Origin: Nanobdellota archaeon
GTDB lineage: Archaea; Nanobdellota; Nanobdellia; Pacearchaeales; GW2011-AR1
Direction: 5' to 3'
Assembly (NCBI GenBank): GCA_022709585.1
Contig: JAKLIN010000001.1
Location: 1-34,406 of the forward strand
Length of the DNA: 34,406 bases
The stretch's first letter is position 1; each line of letters opens with the position of its first letter. Positions 13,228 through 34,406 of this stretch are shown one piece after another. The notes under the pieces are model-generated. The model searched no databases. It worked only from the letters and a program-made list of their open reading frames with translations, and had not been told where the DNA came from. The position numbers and the translations under genes were made by a program.

Positions 13228-13380
13228 ATGAAACTCAAATTTTTTATTGATTCCAAGAAAAAGAAAGTTTACACTCTTCAAGAAGAGAAAGAAAACAAAA
13301 AAACTCAGGATGCTCATTACAAGTTTATTAAGTTCAAAGACAGAGCTGAACAAGAAGACAATTTGCAAGAGTCAGATTAA
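13228..13380 (+). CDS. nop10: Nop10-like H/ACA RNP protein lacking zinc-ribbon cysteines, 50 aa, absent from the ORF track
   Basis: My translation is MKLKFFIDSKKKKVYTLQEEKENKKTQDAHYKFIKFKDRAEQEDNLQESD. The VYTL and AH..F..(K)D spacing resembles eukaryote-like Cys-less Nop10 (compare ...RVYTLKK...SAHPARFSPDD). An A/T box lies about 24 nt upstream. The stop shares TTAA with the convergent gene, as at two other sites. It lies close to aIF2-alpha, a known archaeal neighbourhood. Confidence 0.4.
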   Translation: MKLKFFIDSKKKKVYTLQEEKENKKTQDAHYKFIKFKDRAEQEDNLQESD

Positions 13381-17680: not shown

Positions 17681-18844
17681 TTAATTAGCTAACCCTGCTT
17701 TTCTTCTCAACTCTCCAGCTTTGTCGGTTTTTTCCCATGAAAATCCCGCTCTTCCGAAATGCCCATAGCTAGCTGTTTTTTCATAAATTGGTTTTTTCAA
17801 ATCTAAATATTGTATAATTGCTTTTGGGCGCAAATCAAATGTTTCTAAAACAACTTGTCTGATTTTTTCTTCTGGAACTTTGTTAGTATTAAAACAGTCT
17901 ATATGAACTGAAACAGGCCTAGCAACTCCAATGGCATAACTAATTTGAATTTCGCATTTATCTGCGAGTTTTGCGGCAACAATATTTTTAGCGATATGCC
18001 TTGCAATATATGCCCCGCTTCTGTCCACTTTTGAAGGATCTTTTCCACTGAAACAACCACCGCCCACTCTTCCAACTCCACCATAACTGTCTACGATTAT
18101 TTTTCTTCCAGTTAATCCAGTATCTCCCTCAGGCCCACCAATAACAAATCTTCCTGTTGCATTAATATGAATCTTAGTTTGTTTGTCAATTAATTTTCCG
18201 CAAGTAGGTACAATAACTTTTTTGTAAATTTCTTTTCTTAGTTTATTTTCACTAACTTGTTTTTTATGCTGCTGTGCAATAACAACTGTATCAATTCTTT
18301 TTGGTTTTCCATTTTCATACTCCACGGTAACTTGAGTTTTTCCATCTGGTCCAAGTCCGTGATTAAATGCTCCGGATTTTCTAAAATCCGCAAGTGCTTT
18401 TGCAAGTTTATGAGCAAAAATAATTGGCATGGGCATTAATTCAGGTGTTTCATTGCAAGCAAAACCATACATCATTCCCTGGTCTCCTGCACCTTGCTCT
18501 TTTTCATCGCCATTTGTTTTTTCATCCACTCCTCGAGAAATATCTGGGCTTTGCGAGTGAATACTTACCCAAACACCTGCATCTTCGTAATCCATTCCAA
18601 ATTCAGGGTCATTATAACCAATCCTTTTCAAAGTCTCTCTTACAGTTTGGTGAATGTCCACAAAACCCTCAGTTGTAACCTCTCCTGCAACATGAACACT
18701 TCCAGTTGTTACAAGAGTCTCGACTGCAACTCTAGAATTAGGATCTTGTGCAATTAATTTATCTAAAATTGCGTCAGAAATTTGGTCGCAGATTTTATCT
18801 GGATGTCCTTCGGTTACAGACTCTGAAGTTATGTAAGTTTTCAT
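17681..18844 (-). CDS. metK: S-adenosylmethionine synthetase, bacterial/eukaryotic MetK type
   Basis: It has [32 protein letters not shown] and [19 protein letters not shown]. It is 387 aa. Confidence 0.95.
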
Positions 18845-22597: not shown

Positions 22598-23326
22598 ATG
22601 CTATTAATTGAAATTTCTGGTAAGAATGGTCTCGGAAAGACTCATGGCGTAGAGCTAGCTCCAAAAGAATTACTTAAAGGAAGTTCGTATTCTTTTTATA
22701 AAAAAATAAATCCAAATAATGGAGATATTGAAGAGCAAGAAAATCAAATTCTAGAGCAATCTAAAGATTTAATGACAAAAAAACCTTTTTTTATCGGAGG
22801 AGATCATTCCATAAGCTACCCGTTAGTAAAAAATTTCATTAAAACTCACAAAAACGCAGGAATTGTCGTTTTAGATGCCCATCCAGATTTAATGCCTCCG
22901 ATGGAAAATCCAACGCATGAAGAATGGTTAGCAGCGGTTATTGAACTCGGATTTAATCCTAAGAATATTTTGTTAATTGGAGCGAGAAACATTGATCCTG
23001 AAGAAGAAAAACACTCTGTTAATAAGATTAAAATATCAGAGTTAAACAATTGTCAAGAAAAATTAAACACTTTTTTAAAAGACAAACAGATTTATTTATC
23101 AATGGATATAGATTTTTTTGATTCTTCAATCGCTTCTGCTACAGGTTATCCAGAAAAAGATGGTGCAACTGAATCTCAAGGATTAACCTTAATCAAACAA
23201 ATAATTCAAAATGGAAATGTTTGCGCAGCAGATTTAGTTGAAGTTAATCCAACAAAACAGAATCCAGAAAAAACAATCGCACTTGCTAAAAAAATAATAA
23301 ATTTAGTTTTAAAGGAAAATAAATAA
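22598..23326 (+). CDS. speB: Ureohydrolase (agmatinase/arginase family), short form
   Basis: It has the Mn-ligand motifs GGDHS, DAHPDL and SMDIDFFD. It is 242 aa. Confidence 0.75.
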   Translation: MLLIEISGKNGLGKTHGVELAPKELLKGSSYSFYKKINPNNGDIEEQENQILEQSKDLMTKKPFFIGGDHSISYPLVKNFIKTHKNAGIVVLDAHPDLMPPMENPTHEEWLAAVIELGFNPKNILLIGARNIDPEEEKHSVNKIKISELNNCQEKLNTFLKDKQIYLSMDIDFFDSSIASATGYPEKDGATESQGLTLIKQIIQNGNVCAADLVEVNPTKQNPEKTIALAKKIINLVLKENK

Positions 23327-23368
23327 AAAATAACAGGAAAAATAAATAAAAACAACAAGGAAAATAAA

Positions 23369-24304
23369 ATGAGAAAAATTAAAGATTTTCAATGGAAACC
23401 AAACTTGACTGTGAAAGAGCTAGTTGACAGCTTCGCAGGATTAGGATATCAATCAATTGAACTTAATGCAGCTAAAGAAGTAGTTGTGAAAATGAAGCGA
23501 GCAGGAGCAAAAATATTCCTTACTTTCACTTCAAATATGACAACTTCAGGATTAAGAGGCTTTTTTGCGCAGCTTTGCGAACTTAAAATTCCAGATGTTA
23601 TTGTTACAACTTCAGGCTCAATTGAAGAAGATATAATGAAATCGCTTGGCGAAAACTTTGAAGTTTCCAGTTTTTATGCTGATGACACTCAGCTTCATGA
23701 AAATGGAGAAAATAGAGTTGGGAATATTTTAATAAGAACAGAAAGCTACATGAAATTTGAAGACAAAATGTTGGAATTGCTGGAAAATATTTACAAAAAA
23801 ACTCCAAGAATCTCTTCCTCAGAATTATTGAAAGAAATTGGGTTACTGATTAAAGATAAAAATTCCCTACTGTATCAAGCAGCAAAAAATAATATCCCAA
23901 TTTATTGCCCTGGAATTGCGGATTCTTCTTTAGGATTCCATTTGTTCATGTTCCAACAAAAACACAAGGATTTTATTGTGGACACAATTTGGGATATGCA
24001 AAGGGTTGTCACAGACTTAGGATTTGATGAAAAGAAAGGCTTAATCTCTCTCGGAGGGGGAATTTCCAAGCATTATGCAATATTCTCTGCGCTTCTTTCA
24101 GGAGGATTTGATTATGCTGTTTATTTAACAACATCTCATGCTTCCTCCGGCTCAATTTCCGGAGCAACAACTCAAGAAGCAAAATCTTGGGGAAAACTTA
24201 AAGATAATGCAGAAGCAGCAACAGTAAATGGAGACGTTACAATAATTTTCCCTCTTTTGATGTGCGCGGTTTTAGATGAATTAAAATCTCAAAAAATTAT
24301 TTAA
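23369..24304 (+). CDS. dhs: Deoxyhypusine synthase
   Basis: It is 311 aa. It has GGGISKH and the catalytic-lysine context QEAKSWGKL. Confidence 0.9.
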   Translation: MRKIKDFQWKPNLTVKELVDSFAGLGYQSIELNAAKEVVVKMKRAGAKIFLTFTSNMTTSGLRGFFAQLCELKIPDVIVTTSGSIEEDIMKSLGENFEVSSFYADDTQLHENGENRVGNILIRTESYMKFEDKMLELLENIYKKTPRISSSELLKEIGLLIKDKNSLLYQAAKNNIPIYCPGIADSSLGFHLFMFQQKHKDFIVDTIWDMQRVVTDLGFDEKKGLISLGGGISKHYAIFSALLSGGFDYAVYLTTSHASSGSISGATTQEAKSWGKLKDNAEAATVNGDVTIIFPLLMCAVLDELKSQKII

Positions 24305-24307
24305 TCA

Positions 24308-25357
24308 ATGCACATGGCAGAAGCAAAATTCATTCTCTCAAAGTCTAAGTTAATTGAACAATTAAATGTTTTAGAAAAACTGAAATTAAAAATTTCATAC
24401 AGTTACAAAACCAATCGAGAAGTTGGAGATATTCTTCAAGATGTTTCTAATTGCGATTTTTCTATTCATGCTAAAGAAGAGATTGAAAAAATAAAAAATA
24501 AAAATAAAATCTGGTTTTTTAGCCAGGCAGAATCAGTAGATGAACTTGAGAACATCCTTAAAAAAGGTGTAAGAAACTTCGTAGTTGACAATGAAATAGA
24601 TTTTCAAAGAATTCTCGAGGCAATAAAAAAAACAAAGATAAAAATAAATCTCTCTTTAAGAATGAAACTTCAAGAGCACAGAATTGGAAGCGAAAAATAC
24701 TTTGTTTATGGAATGCCCTCGAAAAAAGTGAATGATTTAATTAAAGAAATAAAAGACAACAAACTAATTGAAATATTAGGCATTCATTTGCACAGAAAAT
24801 CTCAAAACACAAGTGAATGGGAGATAAAAAAAGAGCTTGAAGATTCCATAGACTCTGAAAATTTCAAAAGAATAGATTTAGTGAACATTGGGGGCGGGCT
24901 TCCAGTGGAATATCGCTCTTTTACCTCAAAAGTAATGCCTTATATCTTTGAAAAAATAATTGAAGCGCGAGATTTTCTAAAAAAATACAACATAGAAACT
25001 TACATTGAGCCTGGAAGATTTTTAGCTGCACCTTGCATTAAACTTGAAACAGAAATAATTCAAATTCAAGAAAAGAATATAATAATTAATACCACAATTT
25101 ACAACTGCGCATTAGATACGATTCTTACAGGAACAAAAATGCTTGTTGAACAAGAAATTTCCGAGGATAAACCGGGAGATTTTTATCTTATAAAAGGGAA
25201 TTCTCCTGCCAGAGATGACATATTCAGATACAAAGTAAAGCTAAGCAATCCAAAAGTCGGCGATAAAATCACATTCATGAACGCAGGAGCATATAATTAT
25301 ACCACAGATTTCTTTGGTTATAAAAAACTTAAAACTGAGACTGTAGAAAAGTTTTAA
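24308..25357 (+). CDS. PLP-dependent Orn/Arg/Lys/DAP-type decarboxylase (group IV, alanine-racemase fold)
   Basis: It has the PLP lysine context YSYKTN, NIGGGLPVEY and EPGRFLAAP. It is 349 aa. The start may be the ATG at 24314. It lies 3 nt downstream of dhs. Confidence 0.75.
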   Translation: MHMAEAKFILSKSKLIEQLNVLEKLKLKISYSYKTNREVGDILQDVSNCDFSIHAKEEIEKIKNKNKIWFFSQAESVDELENILKKGVRNFVVDNEIDFQRILEAIKKTKIKINLSLRMKLQEHRIGSEKYFVYGMPSKKVNDLIKEIKDNKLIEILGIHLHRKSQNTSEWEIKKELEDSIDSENFKRIDLVNIGGGLPVEYRSFTSKVMPYIFEKIIEARDFLKKYNIETYIEPGRFLAAPCIKLETEIIQIQEKNIIINTTIYNCALDTILTGTKMLVEQEISEDKPGDFYLIKGNSPARDDIFRYKVKLSNPKVGDKITFMNAGAYNYTTDFFGYKKLKTETVEKF

Positions 25358-25358
25358 G

Positions 25359-26222
25359 TTAAAAAGGAAATATTTGAAATAAGACGTCTGAGATTGGAAA
25401 AACAAAGAAGTAAACCAGAATAAGAAATACAAAACTTACTAAGAATACAGGTACAAAAGGTATTCCTTTTTTAATTTTAACAAACTTTTTATTTTGCTGA
25501 ATCAGCTTAATCTCTTTTTGAGTTAATCCTTCCCATTTTGCGAGTATCTTTTTGTTTCCAATTAAAATAGGTTTATACAACCAGTCTCCTTCCCTGAGAG
25601 ATTTAACATCTACTACTCGAACCATACAAGATTCATCTATTGCTTTTACAATTAAGTAAGTAAAAGGACTGAAGAAAACAAAAATTCCTGAATAAATAAT
25701 AATTTCTTGACTAAAAAGCCCAAGCAACATGATTAAAACTCCAAGTGCCATAACCAATAAGATTTCTTTTTTATTTTTAGAAAATAACTTTGAAAATTCT
25801 TTTTTAACTTCGATTTTATTTTTTATAGCAAAATAACTGCTAGTAAATATTCCAAAAAAAGCTCCTGAAATTAAAAAAAGTGCTAGAAATGCGAGGAATA
25901 GTTTTATATTTTCAACAAAATTAAAAGAGAAGGGAAGAATTGTTCCTAAAGCAATCATAAGCTTTGCGTCTCCTCCAGCAAACATCTTGGAGTAATAAAA
26001 AACATTTCCTAAAACAAAGAAGATTCCTAATCCAATAAGTCCTTGAAAAAAGAAACTGAAATTTCCTAAAGCAAATAAACTATAAAAAAATCTGAATCCC
26101 AAAGCAAAAGCGATAAGTGAAAAGTTAAGCCAGTCGGGAACTTCTGTTGTTTTTACGTCGTGGATTGAAGCAAAAGTCAACCAAATTAGTGCAAGTGCCA
26201 TTAAGAAAATCACTTCAATCAT
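25359..26222 (-). CDS. Class III signal peptidase (A24 family prepilin/preflagellin peptidase, FlaK/PibD-like)
   Basis: It is polytopic. The first catalytic Asp lies in ASIHDVKTTEVPD and the second in FAGGDAKLMIALG. A soluble insert precedes the last TM, which has GIPFVPVFL. It is 287 aa. Confidence 0.85.
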   Translation of the reverse strand: MIEVIFLMALALIWLTFASIHDVKTTEVPDWLNFSLIAFALGFRFFYSLFALGNFSFFFQGLIGLGIFFVLGNVFYYSKMFAGGDAKLMIALGTILPFSFNFVENIKLFLAFLALFLISGAFFGIFTSSYFAIKNKIEVKKEFSKLFSKNKKEILLVMALGVLIMLLGLFSQEIIIYSGIFVFFSPFTYLIVKAIDESCMVRVVDVKSLREGDWLYKPILIGNKKILAKWEGLTQKEIKLIQQNKKFVKIKKGIPFVPVFLVSFVFLILVYFFVFPISDVLFQIFPF

Positions 26223-26296: not shown

Positions 26297-27457
26297 TTAT
26301 TTTTTAATGGCAATGAAAGTGCTCAATTTTCTTGCTCCTTCGCCAGATTTTAAAGGTTCAAAGATGAATATTTGATTATTGAAACTCATCTGACTGCTTC
26401 CCCCTCCATCAAGATTCATTGCTTCCACACAACCCAAAGATTGCATAAGATTAGAAAGCTCCCAGAGGTATAAATTTTTAGAATAAACTCCAACCAATTT
26501 TACCAGTCCTTCAGAGGTAATTCCTACTGCACTTTTCGCACGATTACTAAACAAGATATCATCAGGAAAATTTTCTGAGTTTGCCAAAATCAGTTTTTCT
26601 AAAGAAAAATCTTCCTGCCCTGGCTGAGCTTCCGGAAAAAGATTTGGACCTGCTCCGAGAAGATAATTATAACTATATCCTTGGTTATTTGCGCTTCTTT
26701 TGCATCTCGGAGTTAATTCACTAAGGTTATTTACCCCTTGAAGAATATCTGCCAAAACAAATAAAGAACCTTCTGGACTTATCTTGCCTTTTAATGCAAA
26801 CACAGCCCGAGCAAGAGGAATTCCTTGTTTTAACAAAACATTGGCTTTATTACATCCATCCATGAAAAGAATTCCCCCAACTTGTCTTGGATCGCTTAAA
26901 CAGAAATATCCTCCGTTTATTCCGTCCCGGTTAGTTTCTTTTAGCGACTTGCCAGGATTATAAATTATTTCTAATTGTTCTGGAAGAGCTGTGATAACTT
27001 CCCCTATTTTTATTTTAGCTTCCTTATCTTGGTAAATAGTATTTAGGTAAGGAAACTCGCTAATTCTTGGCTCCAAAAAAACAGGATTAGAAGAAGCATA
27101 CCCGATAAGGTTCAATTTGCCTTTTTCTAGATAAGTTAGCTCAACTAAATCTTTTTGAGAGGTCTCTTTCAATTCATAAACAGGGGGAGATTCACAAGAT
27201 TTTTCGTATTTAATCGTAGGGGTAGCTTGAGGATATTCTAATTTTTTTGGAGATAGCACACTTTCTAAAGAAGAATTTGAAACATATTCTGGAATTGTTT
27301 CTGCAGAACTTATTGGATTTCCAGAGGTTGCAAGACTTACGGAACTTGTCGAAAAAATGGGGGGATTAGGAATTAATGCTTCTGCATTGCTACAACGATT
27401 GCCTACGCTCATTGCAAGCAAAATACCTGCTAGAGCTTCCATCGCCCTCTTTTTCAT
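26297..27457 (-). CDS. Secreted phosphodiester glycosidase-like protein (NAGPA/DUF2233-like)
   Basis: It has the N-terminal signal-like MKKRAMEALAGILLAMSVG, a Ser/Pro-rich linker, and the C-terminal AMNLDGGGSSQM motif characteristic of the family. It is 386 aa. Confidence 0.6.
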   Translation of the reverse strand: MKKRAMEALAGILLAMSVGNRCSNAEALIPNPPIFSTSSVSLATSGNPISSAETIPEYVSNSSLESVLSPKKLEYPQATPTIKYEKSCESPPVYELKETSQKDLVELTYLEKGKLNLIGYASSNPVFLEPRISEFPYLNTIYQDKEAKIKIGEVITALPEQLEIIYNPGKSLKETNRDGINGGYFCLSDPRQVGGILFMDGCNKANVLLKQGIPLARAVFALKGKISPEGSLFVLADILQGVNNLSELTPRCKRSANNQGYSYNYLLGAGPNLFPEAQPGQEDFSLEKLILANSENFPDDILFSNRAKSAVGITSEGLVKLVGVYSKNLYLWELSNLMQSLGCVEAMNLDGGGSSQMSFNNQIFIFEPLKSGEGARKLSTFIAIKK

Positions 27458-27649: not shown

Positions 27650-28717
27650 TTACGAACCACACTTCCCATCTTTGCAAGACTGATAAATATTATCTAATTC
27701 AAGGTATCTGAAAGAAACTTTTTCTACATAATCGGAATGATAATCTCCACAACCAACATATTTTCTTAGAATATGACTAAGAGGGGTGTATTTCTCATAA
27801 GGATGAGTATATTCAAAACCAGAAACCTGATCACAATTTGGGTAACTAGCTTTATTGTTTATAAAATAAACTCCCCTAAAGATCGCATATTCTGGGTCAA
27901 AAAGCGCACTATTGCTCCTACTACAAGATAAAGTTCTAGAAGTAATGCCTTTAAATTTATTCAAAAAAACGCCGCTATCACAAGCATTAGAGTTTATCTG
28001 CATTAATCCCAGATAATTATCCCCCAGAGAATCATCATCAAGGGGATGAGCAATACAACTAGACTCTTGCATTATAACAGATAAAACCAAGAGAGGATCT
28101 AATGAAGAACCTGTTTTTTCGCGAACAGAATCTGTAACAGTTTGATCTGTTTTAAGATATTCAATGTATTTAATTAAATACTCTGCATAATCATCACATC
28201 TTGTGCCGCAAGAACACGTTCTGTCTCCAACAGCATGATCCTTAAGGTAATTTAACAAAAATTTTAACGTTTCAAGGTCCCGCTTTTCACTAAACATATT
28301 TACATAAATATTGGTTCCAGCTCCGCTCCCCGTCCCACTCCCAGTTCCAGAGCCACCACCAGTTCCAGGATCACTGCCACCCGTAGAAGGATCTACTCCC
28401 GTGCAATCAATCCCCGGACATTTTTTAACAGTTCCAGAATATTTTTGAGAAGTCGAAAGGCTATAGCAGGTTTCTTTTTCAGGTGTTTCTTTTCCTTTGA
28501 TTATGACATTTCGTTCGCGAGTGCAAAATTCACTTTTAAGCTTTGCTAAGCAAACTAAAGAACAGTGATCCTTGATTATTGCGAGATTATTATCTAATTC
28601 AGTTTCTTCTCTAAAAAAACGCCAGTTAGTAGAAAATCCCAAAGCAAGAAAACCGATGATTAATAAAGAGATTATAATTGCCATTAAAAATCCGGAAGTA
28701 ATCCCTTTTTTATCCAT
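27650..28717 (-). CDS. Pilin-like leader + 6-Cys module + G/S/T linker + SLT (GH23) lytic transglycosylase domain
   Basis: MDKKG is followed by a hydrophobic helix. The module is C-x3-C-x8-C-x18-C-x15-C-x4-C. The linker is GVDPSTGGSDPGTGGGSGTGSGTGSGAG. SLT motifs are VIMQESSC (E codon at 28064-28066) and GLMQIN (27996-28010). Confidence 0.7.
   Translation of the reverse strand: MDKKGITSGFLMAIIISLLIIGFLALGFSTNWRFFREETELDNNLAIIKDHCSLVCLAKLKSEFCTRERNVIIKGKETPEKETCYSLSTSQKYSGTVKKCPGIDCTGVDPSTGGSDPGTGGGSGTGSGTGSGAGTNIYVNMFSEKRDLETLKFLLNYLKDHAVGDRTCSCGTRCDDYAEYLIKYIEYLKTDQTVTDSVREKTGSSLDPLLVLSVIMQESSCIAHPLDDDSLGDNYLGLMQINSNACDSGVFLNKFKGITSRTLSCSRSNSALFDPEYAIFRGVYFINNKASYPNCDQVSGFEYTHPYEKYTPLSHILRKYVGCGDYHSDYVEKVSFRYLELDNIYQSCKDGKCGS
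28455..28495. repeat. 41-nt near-identical segment shared with 31436-31476 (37/41 identical)
   Basis: The sequences are gaaaggctatagcaggtttctttttcaggtgtttcttttcc and gaaaggctataacaagtttctttttcaggcgtttcctttcc. On the minus strand both encode GKETPEKETCYSLS. Confidence 0.8.
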
Positions 28718-28779: not shown

Positions 28780-31707
28780 TTAATAAGGGGAACTTTTTGA
28801 AATTAACTCTATTTTATCTAAGAGTATTTTTTGGTTGATTGGCCCGTAAGATTCCGCGAGCCTATGATCTGACATCATGGAATTCATTGTTGCTCGAATG
28901 TTTAATGGATTATAACCACATCCCAGGAAGTAACATACAAACTCATCTTCAGTTAAATCAGGATTCTTAATTTTTTCTTCCTCAAATCTTTTTATGCAAG
29001 ATTCTCCATATGTTTCCAGAGGATTTGTCAAATCTTTAGGATAAGGAGAGTTTATAGAATTTGCTTTCCACCAGCTAGATCTATCTTCTTGTCCTGTTTC
29101 GGGATTTACATACTCAAGATATTCTGGATCTCTAGAGAGAGTTAATTCCCCTATTGGAGGTGCTAAGTCTTTCCAGACTCCTGCTCCATAAACGCTAGGA
29201 TTTGCTTGAATCAGTACATCACTTTCAACGCAAGTTTTTCCTTGAGGCCTATCATAAGCATAAAGAGAGGGGTTTGATTCTCCAGAAATTTCTTCTTTAA
29301 TTTCTTTCCAAGAATAATAATATTCATCTTCTAACTTTCCAAAAGAATGCCCAAATTCGTGAAGAATCATTCTCGCTCTGTCATTTCTATACCCGCAAGA
29401 TAAAGAAAGTGCAAAAGTACTTGCTGCTGCTGCAGAACGAAATCTTTCTTTTTTATAAAGAATTATAACACTGTCTGCATTTTTTAAATTCAATGATTGT
29501 GCAAGACTTTGAGAAATTGTCGAGTACTCCAAATTGTCGGGATGTTTTTCTTCAAAATAAGAAGAATCCCAGTACCAATCAAATAAAAATTGATTGCCTG
29601 CTCCCCCGAGGTACATTCTGCCACCAACTGTTGCAGAAGAATGGCAATTAGTCTTTGGAGGAAGCACTGTCGGAGTTTCTTTAACTAACTCTGCCCAGAT
29701 ATTGAACTGGTCTTGATGGGTTTTAAACGGTTCCATTTCAAAGAAACTTAGGTAATTCTCTTCATCATTTTCTTTAAACAAGTATTCAACTTCCTTTTTT
29801 AATTCTTCAAGTGCAGAATATCCTACTCCTCGGATTACAATATCAATTTTATCTTTGCGTAATTGATAAGGCTCGTCTGTACCAGAAGAAGGCAAAACAA
29901 GAATCCTATTAGAATAATATTTTTCAACGCACTTATTGAGATTTACGTTACAATCTAAATAAGGATAACAATCCCAATCGGTTTTGCAAAAGTCTCCTGC
30001 TTGAATTTCTTTAAAACTTTCTACATCGCTCCAGTGTAAAACTGGAACTGTTTGAGTCTCTGAAGGAGTTTTTTCTTTCAAATCTTTTAAATCTGGAGCT
30101 TCAATTATTCCATTGTAAAACAAATCTTGAACATTATCTTCGGAAAATTCATTCTCGGAGAGATACTCTTCAGATCTTATTTTTTTTAGGGTATTGTCAT
30201 ATAACCGGAATATTCCTCCGTAAAGAATAGCAACTTCTTCAACATAATAGATATGCGTGCTGCCTTGGGCAGGATCGTATTCAAAAGGACTTGCACCAGG
30301 AATATTTTCACAAAGCCCCTTTTTTCGCGTCTTGCTATCATAATCTCTTAAAGCAGCATTAAAAGAAAAATAATCTTCATATCTAGAAACTCCTTTTTCT
30401 GCACAACCTCGAATTTGTTCTTTTGTGAAGCCCATTCGATTTTTTTCATAAGAAGATTCTAATTCTTTAATTTCTCTTTCAAGATCTACCAGAGAATTAA
30501 TATTTTCACTTTCTTGAACCAAAAATGCTAAATATAAAAAAGGATCTTGATAACTTTTATCTAAGGTGTGCTCTGATAGTCTCAGAATTTTATCCGCATA
30601 CTTTACACAGCTAATGGGAGAATCTTCATTAGTAAAATCACAATTTAATTTTTTGTTTATATTTTTCCAAGTTTCTGTGGAATAATCGTAAATCATGCTA
30701 GGAAATCCTGTTCTACTAGAAGTTTTAACAAGAGCTTCAAATAAGTCTTTCTCTTGAGAAGAAGCTCTATCAATAGTCTTTATTCCCCTCATTAAGGTCA
30801 CTAAAGCGTTTTTAAATGCATACCATTTACCTTGAGAGTCCACTAAATAAAAGTAGTAAACTAAAAATCTGCCAGAATCTGAAGGCATTTCAACATCTAC
30901 TGAGATTAAGTTTCCTTTAATTTTAGCAAAGTTTTTGTCAAATACATTTCCTATTGAACTTACAGAAAATCCAAATTGGTCTGTGACAATTAAATTAAAC
31001 TCCCCCAGATTATTTTCTGCATGATCGACAGATTCATCTGCTACCCATCTTGAATTGAATTCGTTATTCTGATTTTGTTTATTTACTACCTTTAATTTAA
31101 TTCTTGCAAATTCTCTCGGTAAAGGCGTAGAATATTCTGTTGTGAAAGAATTAACTTCTCCTACTTCAAAAGAGTGCAATTCAAGTAGACTTTCTAAATC
31201 TGTTGCTTTTCCGGAAATAGGAGCAACCAAATTTTCTGGATCTGAAACCTTAAAATAATTGTTAAAAACGAAGGTGTTTTGCTTAGAAACTTTTTCGATT
31301 TGAGATGCTTGATAAGTTAATTCCTCTTGTAAAATCTTTTCTAAATCTATTTCTTCAGGCAAAAGAACCATTCCACTTCCTTCACAAATAATATTAGAAC
31401 AATAAGAAATAATATTGGAATATTCTGAAGATTTTGAAAGGCTATAACAAGTTTCTTTTTCAGGCGTTTCCTTTCCGTTTATTGTCACTTGGCGTTCTAA
31501 AGTACAAAAAAGCTGTTTTGAGTTGGTCAAACAAGCATTAGAACATTGAGATTTAATATCCCCTAAGTTATTCTGAGAACTGCTTTCTCCAAATGTATCT
31601 CTAAAAAAAGACCAATTTGTAGATATTCCGTATGAAACAAAAAGAATAACCACTAAAGAAGTTATAACTAAAAAAATAATTTTAGATCCTATTCCTCTTT
31701 TATTCAT
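28780..31707 (-). CDS. 975-aa mosaic secreted protein: pilin-like leader + 6-Cys module + beta-rich region + divergent lysozyme-like domain + Cys knot + M64-like zinc metallopeptidase
   Basis: It has the MNKRG leader. GKETPEKETCYSLS is identical to the SLT paralogue. YLAFLVQESE lies at 30505-30534. DFCKTDWDCYPYLDCNVNLNKC lies at 29929-29994. HEFGHSFGKLEDEY lies at 29320-29361. Confidence 0.65.
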   Translation of the reverse strand: MNKRGIGSKIIFLVITSLVVILFVSYGISTNWSFFRDTFGESSSQNNLGDIKSQCSNACLTNSKQLFCTLERQVTINGKETPEKETCYSLSKSSEYSNIISYCSNIICEGSGMVLLPEEIDLEKILQEELTYQASQIEKVSKQNTFVFNNYFKVSDPENLVAPISGKATDLESLLELHSFEVGEVNSFTTEYSTPLPREFARIKLKVVNKQNQNNEFNSRWVADESVDHAENNLGEFNLIVTDQFGFSVSSIGNVFDKNFAKIKGNLISVDVEMPSDSGRFLVYYFYLVDSQGKWYAFKNALVTLMRGIKTIDRASSQEKDLFEALVKTSSRTGFPSMIYDYSTETWKNINKKLNCDFTNEDSPISCVKYADKILRLSEHTLDKSYQDPFLYLAFLVQESENINSLVDLEREIKELESSYEKNRMGFTKEQIRGCAEKGVSRYEDYFSFNAALRDYDSKTRKKGLCENIPGASPFEYDPAQGSTHIYYVEEVAILYGGIFRLYDNTLKKIRSEEYLSENEFSEDNVQDLFYNGIIEAPDLKDLKEKTPSETQTVPVLHWSDVESFKEIQAGDFCKTDWDCYPYLDCNVNLNKCVEKYYSNRILVLPSSGTDEPYQLRKDKIDIVIRGVGYSALEELKKEVEYLFKENDEENYLSFFEMEPFKTHQDQFNIWAELVKETPTVLPPKTNCHSSATVGGRMYLGGAGNQFLFDWYWDSSYFEEKHPDNLEYSTISQSLAQSLNLKNADSVIILYKKERFRSAAAASTFALSLSCGYRNDRARMILHEFGHSFGKLEDEYYYSWKEIKEEISGESNPSLYAYDRPQGKTCVESDVLIQANPSVYGAGVWKDLAPPIGELTLSRDPEYLEYVNPETGQEDRSSWWKANSINSPYPKDLTNPLETYGESCIKRFEEEKIKNPDLTEDEFVCYFLGCGYNPLNIRATMNSMMSDHRLAESYGPINQKILLDKIELISKSSPY
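31436..31476. repeat. Partner copy of the 28455-28495 segment
   Basis: See the partner entry. The four mismatches are all transitions. Confidence 0.8.
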
Positions 31708-31767: not shown

Positions 31768-32934
31768 TTATTTAAGTTTTTGATCATATAAATCTGAAAG
31801 TCTTCCATAAAGATACATTACTTCTTCTACATAAAAAGTGCTTCTACCAGAACAATATGCTTCAGTCTGAGCCCAAGAGGCCCTCAATGCAGAGTTATAT
31901 TCTTTATAATAAGTATATCTTCGATTTCCAATACTCCAACAAGATTCAAGAAAATCTTTATTTAAACCATTTTTGTAAGAATTATATTTTTCCTGAGTCG
32001 TTTTTGCCAGAGGTCCGATAGTCTCGGGGAAATCCTTGTTACATCCTCCTCGAATTGCCCTAGCTAATAAAAGAAGAGGGTCTTCAATTCCATAGGTTGA
32101 TGCAGCCTCAACTGTTTTCTCAGCGTAAAGCCCGCAATCGTTGCCACATTCACATTTTTTGTACTTAAACTGCCATCGACTCAAGTCGTGGTCATATTCT
32201 ATAACACTTATTCCGTTCGTGGAAGAAGAAATATTTTTCAATACTTCTGCGATAATTATTGGATTATTTCTTAGATTATCCTCGCTCTCAGAAGGTTTAT
32301 TCCATAAAGTAATCAAACTGTTATTAACCCTGCTAAAATGATAATTTTTATCCAGAATAACAAAATAAAATTTTATCCATTCTCCGATTTTATTAGGGAG
32401 TACGGCGGTGACCTTTGCAACCGAATTAGTTTTTGAATCATATTCCAAGGAGTAAATCTCTTTTTGAATTGCTCCTTCTGAAGAATCTTCTAAAACAAAA
32501 ACAATTTTTTCCCAGTTAGACTCATTGAATCTCTCTTCTAAGTTCTTTAAATAAAAAGTGGTTTCTTCTCCTGCAACAGAATTTTCATACCAGGATTCAA
32601 ATAGACGATTTTCAGGGCAAAGATCTGGACATTGGTCAATTTTTCCTGCAAAATCTCCTGCAATTATCCAAGAATAGTATTCGCAAGTATTGTACAACTG
32701 TTTTCTTCTTCCCAAGCTTAATTCTCTTTTTTCTTGACAAAAGTCATAAGACTGCTCTTGTTCGCAAAAATGAGCACATCTTTCTTTCACTTCTGCAACA
32801 TTATTTTTTTTAAACCAACTAGAAAAATTTAATGCTAAGAAAACAAAACCAGAAATAATTAATCCCGTTGCAAGAAGAATCAAAACTAATCTAACAGTTT
32901 CGTCTTGAACCAACTCTCCTTTTTTGTTCATCAT
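31768..32934 (-). CDS. Pilin-like leader + 6-Cys module + beta-rich region + lysozyme-like domain lacking the catalytic Glu (paralogue of the 975-aa protein N-terminal half)
   Basis: It has an (M)MNKKG leader. It aligns with the 975-aa protein through WIKFYFVILD / FLVYYFYLVD and STFYVEEVMYLYG / THIYYVEEVAILYG. It reads ARAIRGGC (32041-32064) where the paralogues have QES. The start may be the second ATG at 32931. Confidence 0.55.
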   Translation of the reverse strand: MMNKKGELVQDETVRLVLILLATGLIISGFVFLALNFSSWFKKNNVAEVKERCAHFCEQEQSYDFCQEKRELSLGRRKQLYNTCEYYSWIIAGDFAGKIDQCPDLCPENRLFESWYENSVAGEETTFYLKNLEERFNESNWEKIVFVLEDSSEGAIQKEIYSLEYDSKTNSVAKVTAVLPNKIGEWIKFYFVILDKNYHFSRVNNSLITLWNKPSESEDNLRNNPIIIAEVLKNISSSTNGISVIEYDHDLSRWQFKYKKCECGNDCGLYAEKTVEAASTYGIEDPLLLLARAIRGGCNKDFPETIGPLAKTTQEKYNSYKNGLNKDFLESCWSIGNRRYTYYKEYNSALRASWAQTEAYCSGRSTFYVEEVMYLYGRLSDLYDQKLK

Positions 32935-32978: not shown

Positions 32979-33995
32979 TCATTTAGGCAAGAGATATTCT
33001 TCAGCATAACTATCGATTCCTTTAGCAATCCCTTCAGCTATTGCTTCTTGATATCCGACTGTAGCTAATCTTTTCCCTTCTGCGTCATTTGTTATAAAAC
33101 CAATTTCAACTAAAGAAGAGGCATAAGGACTTTTGCAGTTTAAAACAGCTAAAGGATCTTTACCAATTTCTTTGTCGCTTTTTACTTTTCTGTCTAAAAC
33201 CAAACTCGACACAACCGAAAGAGATTTAAGATATTCATTTGCAGAAGAGATTACTTTAGGATGAACAGAGTTAGCTAAGTTTTTTGATGCGATTCTTAAA
33301 TCATTTGTTCTGTAAATGGTTTCTATTCCATTTGCAGCGGCGTCCTGAGCGGCATTACAATGAACAGATACAAGAATATCTGCTTGAAGTGCTACGGCTT
33401 GTGCACATCGAGATTCCAATGAAACAGACTTATCAATTATTCTCGTGAAATCAATATTATTCTTATTATAACCTAAGGCTACCAATTTTTGCTTGACTTT
33501 CAAAGCAACATCTAAATTAATACTTTTTTCATAGATTCCCCCAACACCAATAGCTCCAGGGTCAGTTCCGCCGTGGCCCGGATCAAGAACGATAAAAACA
33601 TCGGATTTTGAGTATATCTCTCCTCTTAACATTCTTTGAGCAAGCTTATCTTTTTCGTTAACTACAGGGACACAATCTCCGAAATCAGGACATTTATCAA
33701 TTAATCCCTTGTATCCTTCTTCATCTGTTTGAGAAAAATAATAACAAGTTTCGTATATTTTCTCTCGCATACTAAGAATTATCTCTCTTTTTTGATTACA
33801 GAAATCATATTCTCCAGAATTTCCTTGACTACAAAAACGAGAACACTGGTCTTGAATTGTTTTCACATTGTTGCTTGGGAACCAACTAGAAAATCCAAAC
33901 CATTGCGTGGTAAAACCTGCTACTAAAAAAGCTAAGAACAAAAGAGCTGCAATAAGACCCACCGTAGCTTCCAAAGTCATTCCTCTTTGATTCAT
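32979..33995 (-). CDS. Pilin-like leader + 6-Cys module + N-acetylmuramoyl-L-alanine amidase (Amidase_3)
   Basis: I place the start at the ATG at 33995 (MNQRG...), not the TTG at 34010 used by the ORF track. Amidase_3 motifs are VLDPGHGGTDPGA, YEKSINL, VSVHCNAA and LVEIGFITN. Confidence 0.85.
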   Translation of the reverse strand: MNQRGMTLEATVGLIAALLFLAFLVAGFTTQWFGFSSWFPSNNVKTIQDQCSRFCSQGNSGEYDFCNQKREIILSMREKIYETCYYFSQTDEEGYKGLIDKCPDFGDCVPVVNEKDKLAQRMLRGEIYSKSDVFIVLDPGHGGTDPGAIGVGGIYEKSINLDVALKVKQKLVALGYNKNNIDFTRIIDKSVSLESRCAQAVALQADILVSVHCNAAQDAAANGIETIYRTNDLRIASKNLANSVHPKVISSANEYLKSLSVVSSLVLDRKVKSDKEIGKDPLAVLNCKSPYASSLVEIGFITNDAEGKRLATVGYQEAIAEGIAKGIDSYAEEYLLPK

Positions 33996-34097: not shown

Positions 34098-34388
34098 TTA
34101 AGCAACAGTATATCCCCATAGTTCAGGGTTTGCTCTTTCTACAAATGCCCCTTTCAATTCACCTTCTTCATCACAGAAATCAACTACAGAAGTACATTTG
34201 TAATCAAACACTTTTGACCAAATAGGGTGTTCTGTAAGTTGTTGACAGGTATAATCAGTTACAGATGTCCCTGTTTTGATTGTAATAAATCCTAAGATTT
34301 TCTTCCCCATATAACCTTCTTTAATTATTTCATACTCTTGATATCTTAAATAAAGATTCATAACATTTTCGAAGTCATCTGCACTCAT
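34098..34388 (-). CDS. Hypothetical protein, 96 aa
   Basis: It is an intact ORF with an ATG start and typical codon bias. No motif was recognised. It contains 3 Cys. Confidence 0.4.
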   Translation of the reverse strand: MSADDFENVMNLYLRYQEYEIIKEGYMGKKILGFITIKTGTSVTDYTCQQLTEHPIWSKVFDYKCTSVVDFCDEEGELKGAFVERANPELWGYTVA

Positions 34389-34406
34389 TGTTGTTTCTTT
34401 ACTGAA

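What the first reader, a model, noticed from the sequence alone, without database searches (positions are those of the whole stretch)
28403..28717. A conserved N-terminal delivery module: leader, helix, W-x-F motif and a six-cysteine domain shared by four otherwise different enzymes
Seen by manual alignment of the four N-termini (coordinates 28403-28717, about 31378-31707, about 32611-32934, about 33672-33995). After the helix comes (S/T)(T/S)xW.(F)F or SSWF, then [IV]K..C-x3-C-x(8,10)-(F)C-x(17,18)-(T)C-x(15,17)-C-x(3,5)-C. The cysteine spacing is nearly invariant while the surrounding sequence has diverged, which suggests three disulfides in a compact extracellular domain of about 55 residues. 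Inference: it is a stalk or adaptor domain (analogous to a pilin head, or a dock to the S-layer or a fibre) that has been recombined with different catalytic cargos. I recognise no known family.
Basis: partly seen in the sequence, partly recalled or inferred. Interest (0 to 1): 0.7.

Follow-up and report, generated by a model that had tools for sequence, protein, structure and literature searches.

The report
Pilin-fused cell-wall-degrading enzymes in a Pacearchaeote
Four neighbouring genes of a tiny symbiotic-type archaeon (Pacearchaeota) start with the same pilus-subunit (pilin) module, an undescribed six-cysteine pilin family, and end in different enzymes that cut bacterial cell walls, which suggests the archaeon presents these enzymes on or through its pilus machinery.

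Summary
The four minus-strand genes share a ~105-110-residue N-terminal module with six invariant cysteines, at the stated coordinates and spacings.

The module is not an orphan stalk domain. It is the whole body of a small type IV pilin-like protein family:
- It has 1086 cluster representatives (463 at E<=1e-10), nearly all 100-215 aa stand-alone proteins of Woese-/Pace-/Nanoarchaeota.
- The family consensus is M-x-N-K-R-G|Q-G-L-S-T-N-A-I-I-L-I..., then a hydrophobic helix, G-F-T-x-G-W, and the six-Cys head.
- In all 76 related loci where a peptidase homologue was found, the gene sits just upstream of an A24 prepilin peptidase. A T2SSE ATPase and a polytopic membrane protein lie further upstream.
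- The window keeps this position: D-C-B-A-NAGPA-A24 peptidase.

No Pfam, NCBIfam, PDB or Foldseek match exists for the module. An even cysteine count in 242 of 245 members supports disulfides.

The cargos are Amidase_3 (D), M64 metallopeptidase (B), a GH23/SLT-like domain (A), and a degenerate SLT-like domain (C, also in B).

In about 10 of the 80 related loci, other pilin-like genes of the same operon carry inserted Amidase_2 or SLT domains.

Best reading: these are archaeal modular pilins carrying peptidoglycan hydrolases. This is a new variant of a known kind. Processing, filament incorporation and the target are inferred, not shown.

The parts
27650..28717 (-). Gene A (355 aa): pilin module + Gly/Ser/Thr linker + GH23/SLT-like domain. 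Publicly annotated 'hypothetical protein'.
   Evidence: ORF. Pfam SLT hit is below threshold (E=0.0024, 17.8 bits against a 21.3 cutoff, residues 204-290). The sequence shows the motifs QES-S and G-L-M-Q-I-N. It is homologous to SLT inserts in pilin-like genes of related loci. Annotation.
28703..28717 (-). A residues 1-5 (MDKKG): short basic leader ending in Gly, the predicted prepilin-peptidase cleavage site (after G5).
   Evidence: G5 is invariant. The family consensus is K-R-G|Q. Cleavage itself is inferred.
28601..28702 (-). A residues 6-39: hydrophobic alpha-1 helix ending in the G-F-S-T-N-W motif.
   Evidence: AF2 predicts a helix over residues 8-39. G27 is invariant; F28, G31 and W32 are >=90% conserved.
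28403..28591 (-). A residues 43-105: six-cysteine head domain (N-N-[LV] ... C52, C56, C65, C84, C100, C105).
   Evidence: invariant Cys. AF2 of the head alone gives pLDDT 84.4 and pTM 0.73. No PDB or BFVD fold match.
28313..28396 (-). A residues 108-135: low-complexity Gly/Ser/Thr/Pro linker between the pilin module and the SLT-like domain.
   Evidence: Sequence. It matches only artificial GS linkers in the PDB.
27671..28225 (-). A residues ~165-349: GH23/SLT-like lytic transglycosylase domain.
   Evidence: iterated HMM together with the SLT inserts of L030, L016, L018, L002 and L022.
28780..31707 (-). Gene B (975 aa): pilin module (residues 1-110, nt 31378-31707), a domain shared with C (270-508), and M64 metallopeptidase (618-803, HEFGH).
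   Evidence: Peptidase_M64, E=6.2e-9, 35.9 bits against a 26 cutoff; 4df9 and 3p1v; annotated 'M64 family metallopeptidase'.
31378..31707 (-). B pilin module (MNKRG | IGSKIIFLVITSLVVILFVSYGISTNW ... six Cys).
   Evidence: P0004, E=7.4e-37 against the module profile.
30184..30900 (-). B residues 270-508: domain shared with C. Its second half is a degenerate SLT-like region that retains Q-E-S.
   Evidence: E=4e-14. One search gives a weak colinear match to the SLT-insert HMM (8.4 bits).
29299..29856 (-). B residues 618-803: Peptidase_M64 core.
31768..32934 (-). Gene C (388 aa): pilin module (nt 32611-32934) + domain homologous to B 270-508 (nt 31771-32412). No Pfam hit; the catalytic Glu is not evident.
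32979..33995 (-). Gene D (338 aa): pilin module (nt 33672-33995) + N-acetylmuramoyl-L-alanine amidase (Amidase_3, nt 33012-33593).
   Evidence: E=1e-41; endolysin PHROGs, E=1.2e-34.
26297..27457 (-). Phosphodiester glycosidase (NAGPA) protein with a Sec-type N-terminus and no pilin module, lying between gene A and the peptidase.
   Evidence: E=1.6e-16. No counterpart in the related loci L001-L081.
25359..26222 (-). A24 prepilin peptidase (287 aa), last gene of the same-strand cluster. Presumed processing enzyme for A-D.
   Evidence: PF01478, E=4e-12. One search gives a faint Arc_PepC hit. Orthologues lie downstream of the module gene in all 76 related loci where one was found. Annotated 'prepilin peptidase'.
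34098..34406 (-). 3' part of an upstream same-strand ORF that runs off the contig end. Identity unknown.
   Evidence: Every independent assembly breaks about 190-410 bp upstream of gene D, in or just upstream of this ORF.

Best explanation
A-D are archaeal modular type IV pilin-like proteins.

**The module**
- Each begins with a class III (prepilin-type) signal: a 5-6-residue basic leader ending in Gly.
- A hydrophobic helix of about 22 residues follows, ending in G-F-[ST]-x-x-W.
- Then comes a roughly 60-residue alpha+beta head, probably locked by three disulfides.
- This module is the complete body of a small, previously undescribed pilin family of Woese-/Pace-/Nanoarchaeota. Its gene normally sits directly upstream of the A24 prepilin peptidase, at the end of an operon of ATPase, polytopic membrane protein and minor pilins.

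**What happened in this Pacearchaeote**
- That gene was duplicated in tandem into two pairs, A/B and C/D.
- Each copy acquired a C-terminal cargo by domain shuffling: Amidase_3 (D), M64 metallopeptidase plus a degenerate SLT-like domain (B), a degenerate SLT-like domain alone (C), and a GH23/SLT-like lytic transglycosylase behind a flexible G/S/T linker (A).

**Proposed mechanism**
1. The proteins insert in the membrane by the helix.
2. The neighbouring A24 peptidase removes the leader.
3. The T4P-like machinery then extracts the helix into a filament, probably at low stoichiometry or at the tip. Failing that, the helix keeps the proteins on the cell surface.
4. The peptidoglycan-cleaving domains are thereby held at the contact zone with a bacterial partner or prey, whose wall they open or harvest. 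The archaeon itself has no murein.

**Shown versus inferred**
- Shown: module homology, family size and taxonomy, synteny with the peptidase and ATPase, cargo domain identities for D and B, and recurrence of PG-hydrolase grafts on other pilin-like genes.
- Inferred: cleavage, disulfide formation, filament incorporation, the bacterial target, and activity of A, B and C.
For: **1. Pilin nature of the module**
- The family N-terminal consensus is M-x-N-K-R-G-Q-G-L-S-T-N-A-I-I-L-I-L-G-V-V-V-L-V-x-L-I-x-G-F-T-x-G-W.
- Residue +1 is Gln in 228 of 245 members. Gln at +1 is reported to be probably essential for EppA processing of Methanococcus Epd pilins (PMC4390842).
- AF2 gives a 'lollipop': a helix over residues 8-39 plus a small head, pLDDT 83.9.

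**2. Genomic context**
- P0001, a stand-alone module protein, lies after a T2SSE ATPase, a 723-aa polytopic membrane protein and six to seven other K-[KR]-G-leader small proteins, and directly before Peptidase_A24.
- Of the 80 GTDB species-representative loci plus L001, all 76 where an A24 homologue was found have it downstream of the module gene. The median gap is 192 bp and 74 are on the same strand. The other five contigs end before reaching it.
- The membrane protein is upstream in 57 of these loci and the ATPase in 33, within 8 kb flanks.
- The window has the same end structure, with the A24 peptidase at 25359-26222.

**3. Disulfides**
- Six Cys are invariant across 108-147 homologues.
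- The Cys count after the leader is even in 242 of 245 members: 6, 8, 10, 12, 14 or 16.

**4. Cargo identities**
- Amidase_3, E=1e-41, and M64, E=6e-9. Endolysin PHROGs for D. SLT motifs in A.

**5. Recurrence of the principle**
- A different pilin-like gene of the same operon (the 'SVYWFAIL' family) carries inserted Amidase_2 in 5 loci and SLT in 4 loci.
- A third pilin-like family carries SLT in L022. Pfam confirms Amidase_2 at E=4.7e-24 and 2.5e-17, and SLT at 1.8e-8.
- P0144 is the Cys module fused to an HExxH protein.

**6. In-situ duplication and shuffling**
- Each window module's best hit is another window module: A-B 52%, C-D 41%. Cargo similarity instead links B-C and, weakly, A.

**7. 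Genes are real**
- Identical fused ORFs occur in at least four other independent assemblies.

**8. Background**
- Pace-/Woesearchaeota are already suspected to attack bacterial murein (PMC8204110; PMC9723730).
- Archaeal PG hydrolases have been shown to kill bacteria (PMC12352652).
Against: - No pilin sequence model (Pfam Pilin_N, Class_IIIsignal or any other) matches the family. The only hint is a non-significant helix match to a solved archaeal pilin (8fjs, E=0.45).
- The head resembles no solved pilin head or any PDB fold.
- The four window copies depart from the family leader consensus. Their +1 residues are I, I, E and M rather than Q, and they lack G-L-S-T-N-A-I-I-L-I. Processing by an EppA-like peptidase is therefore less certain for them than for the canonical members.
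- No ATPase or platform gene is visible in the window, because the contig ends 400 bp upstream of D.
- The 723-aa membrane protein of the related loci has no T2SSF/FlaJ Pfam hit, so calling it the 'platform' is an inference.
- A 975-aa subunit is hard to fit into a filament body.
- The SLT assignment of A is below Pfam threshold. C has no assignable activity.
- M64 is a protease family, not a known PG hydrolase.
- No expression, localisation or activity data exist.
Confidence: 0.6

Rival explanations
1. Surface anchoring without a filament, in the manner of the Sulfolobus bindosome. The class III signal is cleaved by the A24 peptidase, but the helix simply keeps the enzymes in the membrane or in a short pseudopilus-like surface assembly. 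The Cys head acts as a spacer through the S-layer.
For: - Sulfolobus sugar-binding proteins carry class III signal peptides and are surface-assembled by a T4P-like Bas system (PMC3047682; PMC4858521).
- Cargos of 230-865 residues are bulky for a filament body.
- The window copies have non-consensus leaders.
- Four fused paralogues and no stand-alone small copy are visible in the contig.
Against: - The carrier is itself the conserved small protein of a T4P-like operon with an ATPase.
- Bacterial modular pilins with bulky modules are incorporated into filaments, probably at the tip (PMC8179133).
- This rival differs from the main explanation only in the last step.
Confidence: 0.25
2. Generic secretion leader plus stalk or adaptor. 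The N-terminus would be a Sec-type signal or signal-anchor. The Cys domain would be a docking or stalk module unrelated to pili, and the neighbouring prepilin peptidase would be coincidental.
For: - No pilin HMM or pilin fold matches.
- The adjacent NAGPA protein uses an ordinary Sec-like N-terminus.
Against: - The leader is only 5 residues, ends in an invariant Gly, and is followed at once by the hydrophobic stretch, with no n-h-c architecture.
- Linkage to the A24 peptidase holds in all 76 loci where a homologue was found, and to the ATPase in 33, which is far beyond coincidence.
- All other small genes of these operons have the same K-[KR]-G leader.
Confidence: 0.07
3. The six cysteines form a metal-binding (Zn or Fe-S-like) cluster rather than three disulfides, so the head would be a metal-stabilised or redox-sensing knot.
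For: - C-x3-C and C-x3-5-C pairs could chelate metal.
- The organisms probably live in anoxic habitats where extracellular disulfides are less favoured. This is my inference and was not tested.
Against: - The Cys count is even in 242 of 245 members, rising in steps of two up to 16, which is typical of disulfide-rich extracellular domains.
- No His or Asp co-ligands are conserved.
- The domain is predicted to be extracytoplasmic.
Confidence: 0.1
4. The enzymes serve the archaeon's own envelope or pilus biogenesis, or scavenge free muropeptides as nutrients, rather than attacking a living bacterial partner.
For: - Bacterial trans-envelope machines commonly carry dedicated lytic transglycosylases (established knowledge, not tested here).
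- DPANN archaea are auxotrophic scavengers (PMC8204110).
- The NAGPA and M64 genes suggest broader polymer degradation.
Against: - Pacearchaeota are not known to have murein.
- Amidase_3 and GH23 act on MurNAc-containing peptidoglycan, not on pseudomurein or S-layers (established enzymology).
- Tethering the enzymes to a pilin is not needed for scavenging soluble fragments.
Confidence: 0.15

Closest known systems
Modular type IV pilins of bacteria (e.g. Streptococcus sanguinis PilB with vWA and PilC with lectin; Raynaud et al. 2021, PMC8179133)
   Same: [quoted passage not shown] The architecture is widespread and diverse, includes a peptidase-type module, and is proposed to sit at the filament tip.
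   Different: - That census was built on the bacterial IPR012902 motif and covered bacteria only.
- Here the carrier is an archaeal, Pfam-less six-Cys pilin with a fold that matches nothing solved.
- The cargos are peptidoglycan hydrolases and a metallopeptidase.
- Four paralogous fusions sit in tandem at the pilin slot of the operon.
Epd pilins / EppA prepilin peptidase system of Methanococcus maripaludis (archaeal T4P 'clade/system 1', also reported in DPANN)
   Same: A short leader ends in Gly and Gln is at +1 (228 of 245 family members). Gln +1 is reported as probably essential for EppA. A dedicated A24 peptidase is encoded in the pilus locus.
   Different: - There is no sequence-model match to known Epd/DUF361-type pilins.
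- The window's four fused copies lack Gln +1.
- The head is a small disulfide-rich alpha+beta domain.
- The peptidase subtype was not resolved; only PF01478 plus a faint Arc_PepC hit were found.
Sulfolobus bindosome: sugar-binding proteins with class III signal peptides (PMC3047682)
   Same: Functional non-filament proteins use a prepilin-type signal, an A24 peptidase (PibD) and a T4P-like assembly system to be placed at the cell surface.
   Different: The cargo there is solute-binding proteins for uptake, and no separate pilin head domain is present. Here a complete pilin body is retained and the cargos are lytic enzymes.
Large extracellular murein lytic-transglycosylase-domain proteins of Pace-/Woesearchaeota (Castelle et al. 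2021, PMC8204110; Vigneron et al. 2022, PMC9723730) and archaeal PG hydrolases that kill bacteria (PMC12352652)
   Same: PG-degrading domains occur in murein-less DPANN and other archaea, and are interpreted as tools against bacterial walls.
   Different: - Those reports mention neither pilin-type leaders nor pilus operons. 'Pili' and 'pilin' have no occurrences in PMC8204110, PMC9723730 or PMC12352652.
- PMC12352652 counted only Sec and Tat signals.
- The proteins here are smaller and are built on a pilin scaffold next to the prepilin peptidase.

Membership tests
Type IV pilin-like proteins (type 4 filament subunits; class III signal peptide substrates) | Short positively charged leader ending in Gly/Ala, immediately followed by about 20 hydrophobic residues. 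| tested here: met
   - A: MDKKG|ITSGFLMAIIISLLIIGFLALG.
- B: MNKRG|IGSK...
- C: MMNKKG|ELVQDETVRLVLILLATGLIISG.
- D: MNQRG|MTLEATVGLIAALLFLAFLVAG.
- G5 is invariant and the family consensus is K-R-G|Q.
Type IV pilin-like proteins (type 4 filament subunits; class III signal peptide substrates) | Genetic association with an A24 prepilin peptidase. | tested here: met
   In the window, PF01478 lies at 25359-26222 on the same strand. Among related loci, all 76 where a homologue was found have the peptidase downstream of the module gene.
Type IV pilin-like proteins (type 4 filament subunits; class III signal peptide substrates) | Genetic association with a T4F assembly ATPase and platform protein. 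| tested here: inconclusive
   - Met for the family: a T2SSE ATPase is upstream in 33 related loci (E=6.3e-15 in L001) and a 723-aa polytopic membrane protein in 57.
- That membrane protein has no T2SSF Pfam hit.
- The window contig ends 400 bp upstream of D, so the machinery of this organism is unseen.
Type IV pilin-like proteins (type 4 filament subunits; class III signal peptide substrates) | Extended N-terminal alpha-helix carrying a globular head ('lollipop'). | tested here: met
   AF2 with a 108-sequence alignment predicts a helix over residues 8-39 followed by H45-57, H61-66, a hairpin at 69-82 and H84-89, with pLDDT 83.9. This is a prediction, not a solved structure.
Type IV pilin-like proteins (type 4 filament subunits; class III signal peptide substrates) | Match to curated pilin sequence models or to solved pilin head folds. 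| tested here: not met
   - No Pfam or NCBIfam pilin model hit for the window proteins or for 108 plus 12 family members.
- The PDB profile search gives only 8fjs 'Pilin_N' at E=0.45, on the helix.
- Foldseek against the PDB gives nothing better than E>5.
Type IV pilin-like proteins (type 4 filament subunits; class III signal peptide substrates) | Leader removal by the prepilin peptidase and polymerisation into a filament. | not testable with these tools
   Needs biochemistry or imaging.
Modular pilins (pilin module + grafted non-pilus domain) | An N-terminal pilin module followed by an independently recognisable functional domain. | tested here: met
   - D: Amidase_3, E=1e-41.
- B: Peptidase_M64, E=6e-9.
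- A: SLT-like domain after a G/S/T linker.
- Homology between the paralogues stops at about residue 110.
Modular pilins (pilin module + grafted non-pilus domain) | Bacterial N-terminal methylation motif (IPR012902, G|FTLIE type), used to define the published set. | tested here: not met
   There is no such motif in the sequence and no Pfam N_methyl hit. The proteins are archaeal.
EppA-type (Epd) archaeal pilins | Gln at +1 of the cleavage site. | tested here: not met
   The family as a whole meets this, with Q at +1 in 228 of 245 members. The four window proteins have I, I, E and M at +1.
GH23 / SLT lytic transglycosylase (cargo of A) | SLT domain model match, catalytic Glu-Ser, and G-L-M-Q motif. 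| tested here: inconclusive
   - Pfam SLT scores 17.8 bits, below the 21.3 cutoff.
- The motifs Q-E-S-S and G-L-M-Q-I-N are present in the sequence.
- A is homologous to inserts that do pass Pfam SLT (L030, E=1.8e-8).
Amidase_3 N-acetylmuramoyl-L-alanine amidase (cargo of D) | Full-length match to PF01520 above threshold. | tested here: met
   E=1e-41, 143 bits, covering profile positions 1-173 of 174. NCBIfam CwlD/AmiA-like hits and endolysin PHROGs agree.
Peptidase M64 (cargo of B) | PF09471 match above threshold and an HExxH zinc site. | tested here: met
   35.9 bits against a 26 cutoff. HEFGH is in the sequence. The PDB relatives are 4df9 and 3p1v. Only part of the profile (positions 10-168 of 302) is covered.

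The most novel reading that the evidence does not exclude
The T4P-like apparatus of Pace-/Woesearchaeota is an enzymatically armed contact organelle. Its pilin-like subunits carry amidase, lytic-transglycosylase and protease modules: the six-Cys pilin in this window, and the 'SVYWFAIL' and 'KRGDIPV' pilin-like families in other species. The filament or surface assembly would then cut into the murein of a bacterial host. This would be a dedicated archaeon-against-bacterium attachment, feeding or predation device with no described counterpart, built around a pilin head fold that is new to structural databases.
Probability: 0.35. Interest if true: 0.85.

Novelty: new variant of a known kind. Interest (0 to 1): 0.62.

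Why it matters
**The open question.** Pace- and Woesearchaeota are abundant, uncultured, genome-reduced archaea whose partners are unknown. Published work notes murein-degrading domains in them and speculates that their hosts are bacteria.

**What this locus adds.** It gives a concrete, testable physical mechanism. The wall-cutting enzymes are built onto pilin scaffolds and encoded at the pilin position of the pilus operon, next to the prepilin peptidase. The same design recurs on other pilin-like genes in about one in eight of the 80 related loci examined.

**Further consequences:**
- It defines a large family with no Pfam or NCBIfam model: more than 1000 clusters at 50% identity, made of a six-cysteine pilin with no structural relative.
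- It extends the 'modular pilin' concept from bacteria to archaea and to lytic enzymes.
- Surveys of archaeal PG hydrolases that counted only Sec and Tat signals would have scored such proteins as lacking a secretion signal.

Tried and rejected
- **Family libraries.** Pfam, NCBIfam and PHROGs scans of the module and of up to 108 family members gave only scattered transmembrane-type noise.
- **Structure searches.** The PDB sequence-profile search gave nothing significant. Foldseek of the whole-module model against the PDB and BFVD, and of the head-only model against the PDB, gave no hit better than E>3.
- **First homologue search.** The word-indexed search with only the four window modules found a single hit. 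The full HMM scan and a 147-sequence profile were needed to reveal the family.
- **The search for related loci.** A 12-sequence sub-alignment worked. Its N-terminal patterns favour canonical small members, so the absence of fusions among those 80 loci does not measure how rare fusions really are.
- **Relatives of protein B.** Searching metagenome contigs and the protein collection found none but itself.
- **Extending the contig upstream.** This failed. Every independent assembly breaks about 190-410 bp upstream of gene D, so this organism's ATPase and platform were not seen.
- **Promoter/terminator scan.** It uses bacterial consensus and is uninformative for an archaeon.
- **Disulfide geometry.** It could not be measured because model coordinates are not exposed. 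I used cysteine-count parity instead.
- **Assembly or frameshift artefact.** I considered and rejected this, because identical intact ORFs occur in at least four other assemblies and there are four independent in-frame junctions.
- **Bacterial contamination.** I considered and rejected this. The flanking genes are archaeal (RadA, aIF2-alpha, EF-1beta, deoxyhypusine synthase, GINS, RPA). The public record is Candidatus Pacearchaeota.
Full report
**Setting**

The 34.4-kb window is a complete contig of a Candidatus Pacearchaeota MAG.
- Its GC content is about 32%.
- It carries archaeal housekeeping genes: SRP54/FtsY, RadA, aIF2-alpha, EF-1beta, deoxyhypusine synthase, Gins51 and RPA.

The last 9 kb is one same-strand (minus) gene cluster with short intergenic gaps:
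- D, 32979-33995.
- C, 31768-32934.
- B, 28780-31707.
- A, 27650-28717.
- A NAGPA phosphodiester glycosidase, 26297-27457.
- An A24 prepilin peptidase, 25359-26222.

**Checking the observation**

The four N-termini align over 105-110 residues.

Pairwise BLAST shows the similarity is highly significant and stops at about residue 110:
- A-B: 52% identity, E = 3e-31.
- A-D: E = 4e-15.
- C-D: 41% identity, E = 5e-27.
- B-C: E = 8e-7.

The same intact ORFs occur in at least four other independently assembled metagenome contigs. The fusions are therefore not assembly artefacts.

One is G-F-[ST]-x-G-W at the helix end. The other is a later [PS]-W.

**What the module is**

*First searches.* A profile of the four copies found one hit in the word-indexed collection. 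That hit, P0001, is a 151-aa stand-alone protein. Its contig shows a T2SSE ATPase, a 723-aa polytopic membrane protein and a run of small proteins. Each small protein starts with K-[KR]-G followed by a hydrophobic helix. P0001 comes next, and then Peptidase_A24.

*Exhaustive scan.* An HMM scan of 1.84 billion representatives found 1086 proteins at E<=1e-3 and 463 at E<=1e-10.
- Of the best 151 sequences, 146 are 99-234 aa.
- The exceptions are the four window proteins and P0144, which is 567 aa with an HEGLH motif.

*Family features.*
- The consensus is M-x-N-K-R-G-Q-G-L-S-T-N-A-I-I-L-I-I-L-G-V-V-V-L-V-x-L-I-x-G-F-T-x-G-W-...-N-N-V-D-...-C-x3-C-...-C-...-C-...-C-...-C.
- The six cysteines are invariant or >=90% conserved in 147- and 108-sequence alignments.
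- Source names, where present, are Nanoarchaeota, Pacearchaeota or 'archaeon', and all are 'hypothetical protein'.

**Genomic context**

A scan of GTDB species representatives returned 80 loci. All are Woese-, Pace- or Nanoarchaeota, apart from one record labelled Bacillota, which is probably mis-binned. I analysed stop-to-stop ORFs in these loci plus L001.
- Every module-bearing ORF there is 196 aa or shorter.
- An orthologue of the window's A24 peptidase lies downstream of the module gene in all 76 loci where one was found. The median gap is 192 bp, and 74 are on the same strand. The other five contigs end first.
- The polytopic membrane protein is upstream in 57 of these loci and the ATPase in 33, within the 8-kb flanks.
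- The loci contain a median of five genes with a K/R-G leader plus helix.

The window's D-C-B-A array therefore occupies the slot of a single small gene at the end of a T4P-like operon. The contig breaks just where the upstream machinery would be expected.

**Structure and cysteines**

AlphaFold2 with the family alignment gave two confident models.
- The whole module has pLDDT 83.9. It shows a helix over residues 8-39, then two short helices, a beta-hairpin, a short helix and an ordered C-terminal loop.
- The head alone has pLDDT 84.4 and pTM 0.73.

Foldseek found no relative in the PDB or BFVD. The PDB sequence profile gave only a non-significant match of the helix to an archaeal 'Pilin_N' chain (8fjs, E = 0.45).

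After the predicted cleavage site, 242 of 245 family members have an even number of cysteines: 6, 8, 10, 12, 14 or 16. This strongly favours disulfide pairing over free or metal-binding thiols. I could not measure S-S distances.

Residue +1 is Gln in 228 of 245 members. Work on Methanococcus EppA substrates suggests Gln +1 is essential for processing (PMC4390842). The four window proteins have I, I, E and M at that position, which is a caveat for their processing.

**The cargos**
- D is a clear Amidase_3 (E = 1e-41; endolysin PHROGs).
- B has a Peptidase_M64 core with HEFGH.
- A has a sub-threshold SLT hit, but it carries the Q-E-S and G-L-M-Q-I-N motifs behind a G/S/T linker.
- B (residues 270-508) and C (residues 175-388) share a domain (E = 4e-14).
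- The second half of that shared domain aligns weakly but colinearly with an SLT-insert profile. B keeps Q-E-S and C does not.

So the cargos are only partly 'otherwise different', and C may be a non-catalytic binding module.

Module similarity pairs A with B and C with D. Cargo similarity links B with C, and weakly with A. This means tandem duplication followed by domain shuffling.

**A recurring design**

While surveying the related loci I found that other pilin-like genes of the same operon also carry peptidoglycan hydrolases.
- The 'K-[KR]-G-D-K-I-x-S-V-Y-W-F-A-I-L' family is 165-207 aa in most loci where it occurs and about 370-407 aa in nine.
- Five of those nine have an inserted Amidase_2 domain. 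Pfam gives E = 4.7e-24 and 2.5e-17 for the two tested.
- Four have an inserted SLT domain. Pfam gives E = 1.8e-8 and 2e-4.
- A third family (K-R-G-D-I-P-V...) has a C-terminal SLT-like domain in L022.
- These SLT inserts are homologous to the cargo of A.
- P0144 is a second example of the six-Cys module fused to a putative metalloprotease.

Grafting wall-degrading domains onto pilin-like subunits is thus a repeated invention in this clade. The window is the only case seen where the six-Cys pilin is the carrier, and where four such fusions sit together.

**Comparison with the literature**
- Bacterial 'modular pilins' are a described and widespread design, including a peptidase module, with probable tip location (PMC8179133). 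That census used a bacterial motif.
- Class III signals on non-pilin proteins are known from the Sulfolobus bindosome (PMC3047682; PMC4858521).
- Murein-degrading domains in Pace-/Woesearchaeota, and a possible bacterial host, have been discussed (PMC8204110; PMC9723730). Archaeal PG hydrolases have been shown to kill bacteria (PMC12352652). None of these papers links the enzymes to pilins or pilus operons.
- A 2026 preprint on archaeal type-4-filament diversity mentions neither this family nor such fusions.
- Searches combining pilin, amidase or lytic transglycosylase with DPANN terms found nothing describing this arrangement. That covers only the held open-access library.

**Verdict**

The 'delivery module' is a complete, previously undescribed six-cysteine type IV pilin-like protein that has been co-opted as a carrier for peptidoglycan-active enzymes.

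My confidence by step:
- About 0.85-0.9 that the module belongs to a T4P-operon-linked pilin-like family.
- About 0.75 that the cysteines form three disulfides.
- About 0.5 that the fused proteins enter a filament rather than staying membrane-anchored.
- About 0.6 that the biological target is bacterial murein.

I rate the novelty as a new variant of a known kind: an archaeal modular pilin with a new head and lytic cargos.

Noticed in passing
L017 5926-7086, L037 5946-7166, L012 5996-7126, L010 5906-7096, L051 4828-6048 (Amidase_2); L030 5987-7129, L016 5567-6676, L018 5845-6993, L002 6002-7189 (SLT); L022 452-1390 (SLT-like): Other pilin-like genes of the same Woese-/Pacearchaeota T4P-like operon carry peptidoglycan hydrolase domains in about 10 of the 80 related loci. 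These are the 'SVYWFAIL' family, normally about 170-200 aa, and the 'KRGDIPV' family. In the 'SVYWFAIL' genes the domain is inserted in the middle of the protein; in L022 it is C-terminal.
   Followed up: partly
window 34098-34406 (-); L082-L085 5' ends: Independent assemblies of this locus from four other metagenome records (L082-L085) all end about 190-410 bp upstream of gene D, in or just upstream of a same-strand ORF of unknown identity. This suggests a repeat or strain-variable region just upstream, where the pilus machinery or another paralogue would be expected.
   Followed up: partly
window 26297-27457 (-): A NAGPA-family phosphodiester glycosidase with a Sec-like N-terminus and no pilin module is wedged between gene A and the prepilin peptidase. 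It has no counterpart in the related loci L001-L081. It might act on phosphodiester-linked wall glycopolymers, but this was not tested.
   Followed up: no
P0149 (206 aa), P0147 (234 aa), P0049 (178 aa): Variants of the family exist. P0149 seems to contain two six-Cys heads in tandem. P0147 has a roughly 70-residue insertion between Cys3 and Cys4 plus a Cys-rich tail. P0049 ends in a DUF4215 Cys-rich repeat (E=2e-5).
   Followed up: no
P0144 (567 aa; contig of 2.2 kb, Logan): This is a second enzyme-type fusion of the six-Cys pilin module outside the window, this time to a protein with an HEGLH motif. It has a faint hit to DUF6782, a putative metallopeptidase (E=0.014). It keeps Gln at +1.
   Followed up: partly
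L074 (DATKUW010000085.1): A record titled 'Bacillota bacterium' carries the complete archaeal-type operon (ATPase, module gene, A24 peptidase). It is probably a mis-binned or mislabelled DPANN contig.
   Followed up: no
window 22598-25357 (+): Directly beyond the peptidase lies a compact polyamine/hypusine gene set: an arginase-family protein, deoxyhypusine synthase and an Orn/Arg decarboxylase-like PLP enzyme.
   Followed up: no
window 17681-18844 (-): The S-adenosylmethionine synthetase is of the bacterial/eukaryotic MetK type (PF00438, PF02772, PF02773) rather than the usual archaeal type. This is another bacterial-like gene in this archaeon.
   Followed up: no
window 13377-14606 (-): A 409-aa ORF has no Pfam match at E<=0.001.
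   Followed up: no
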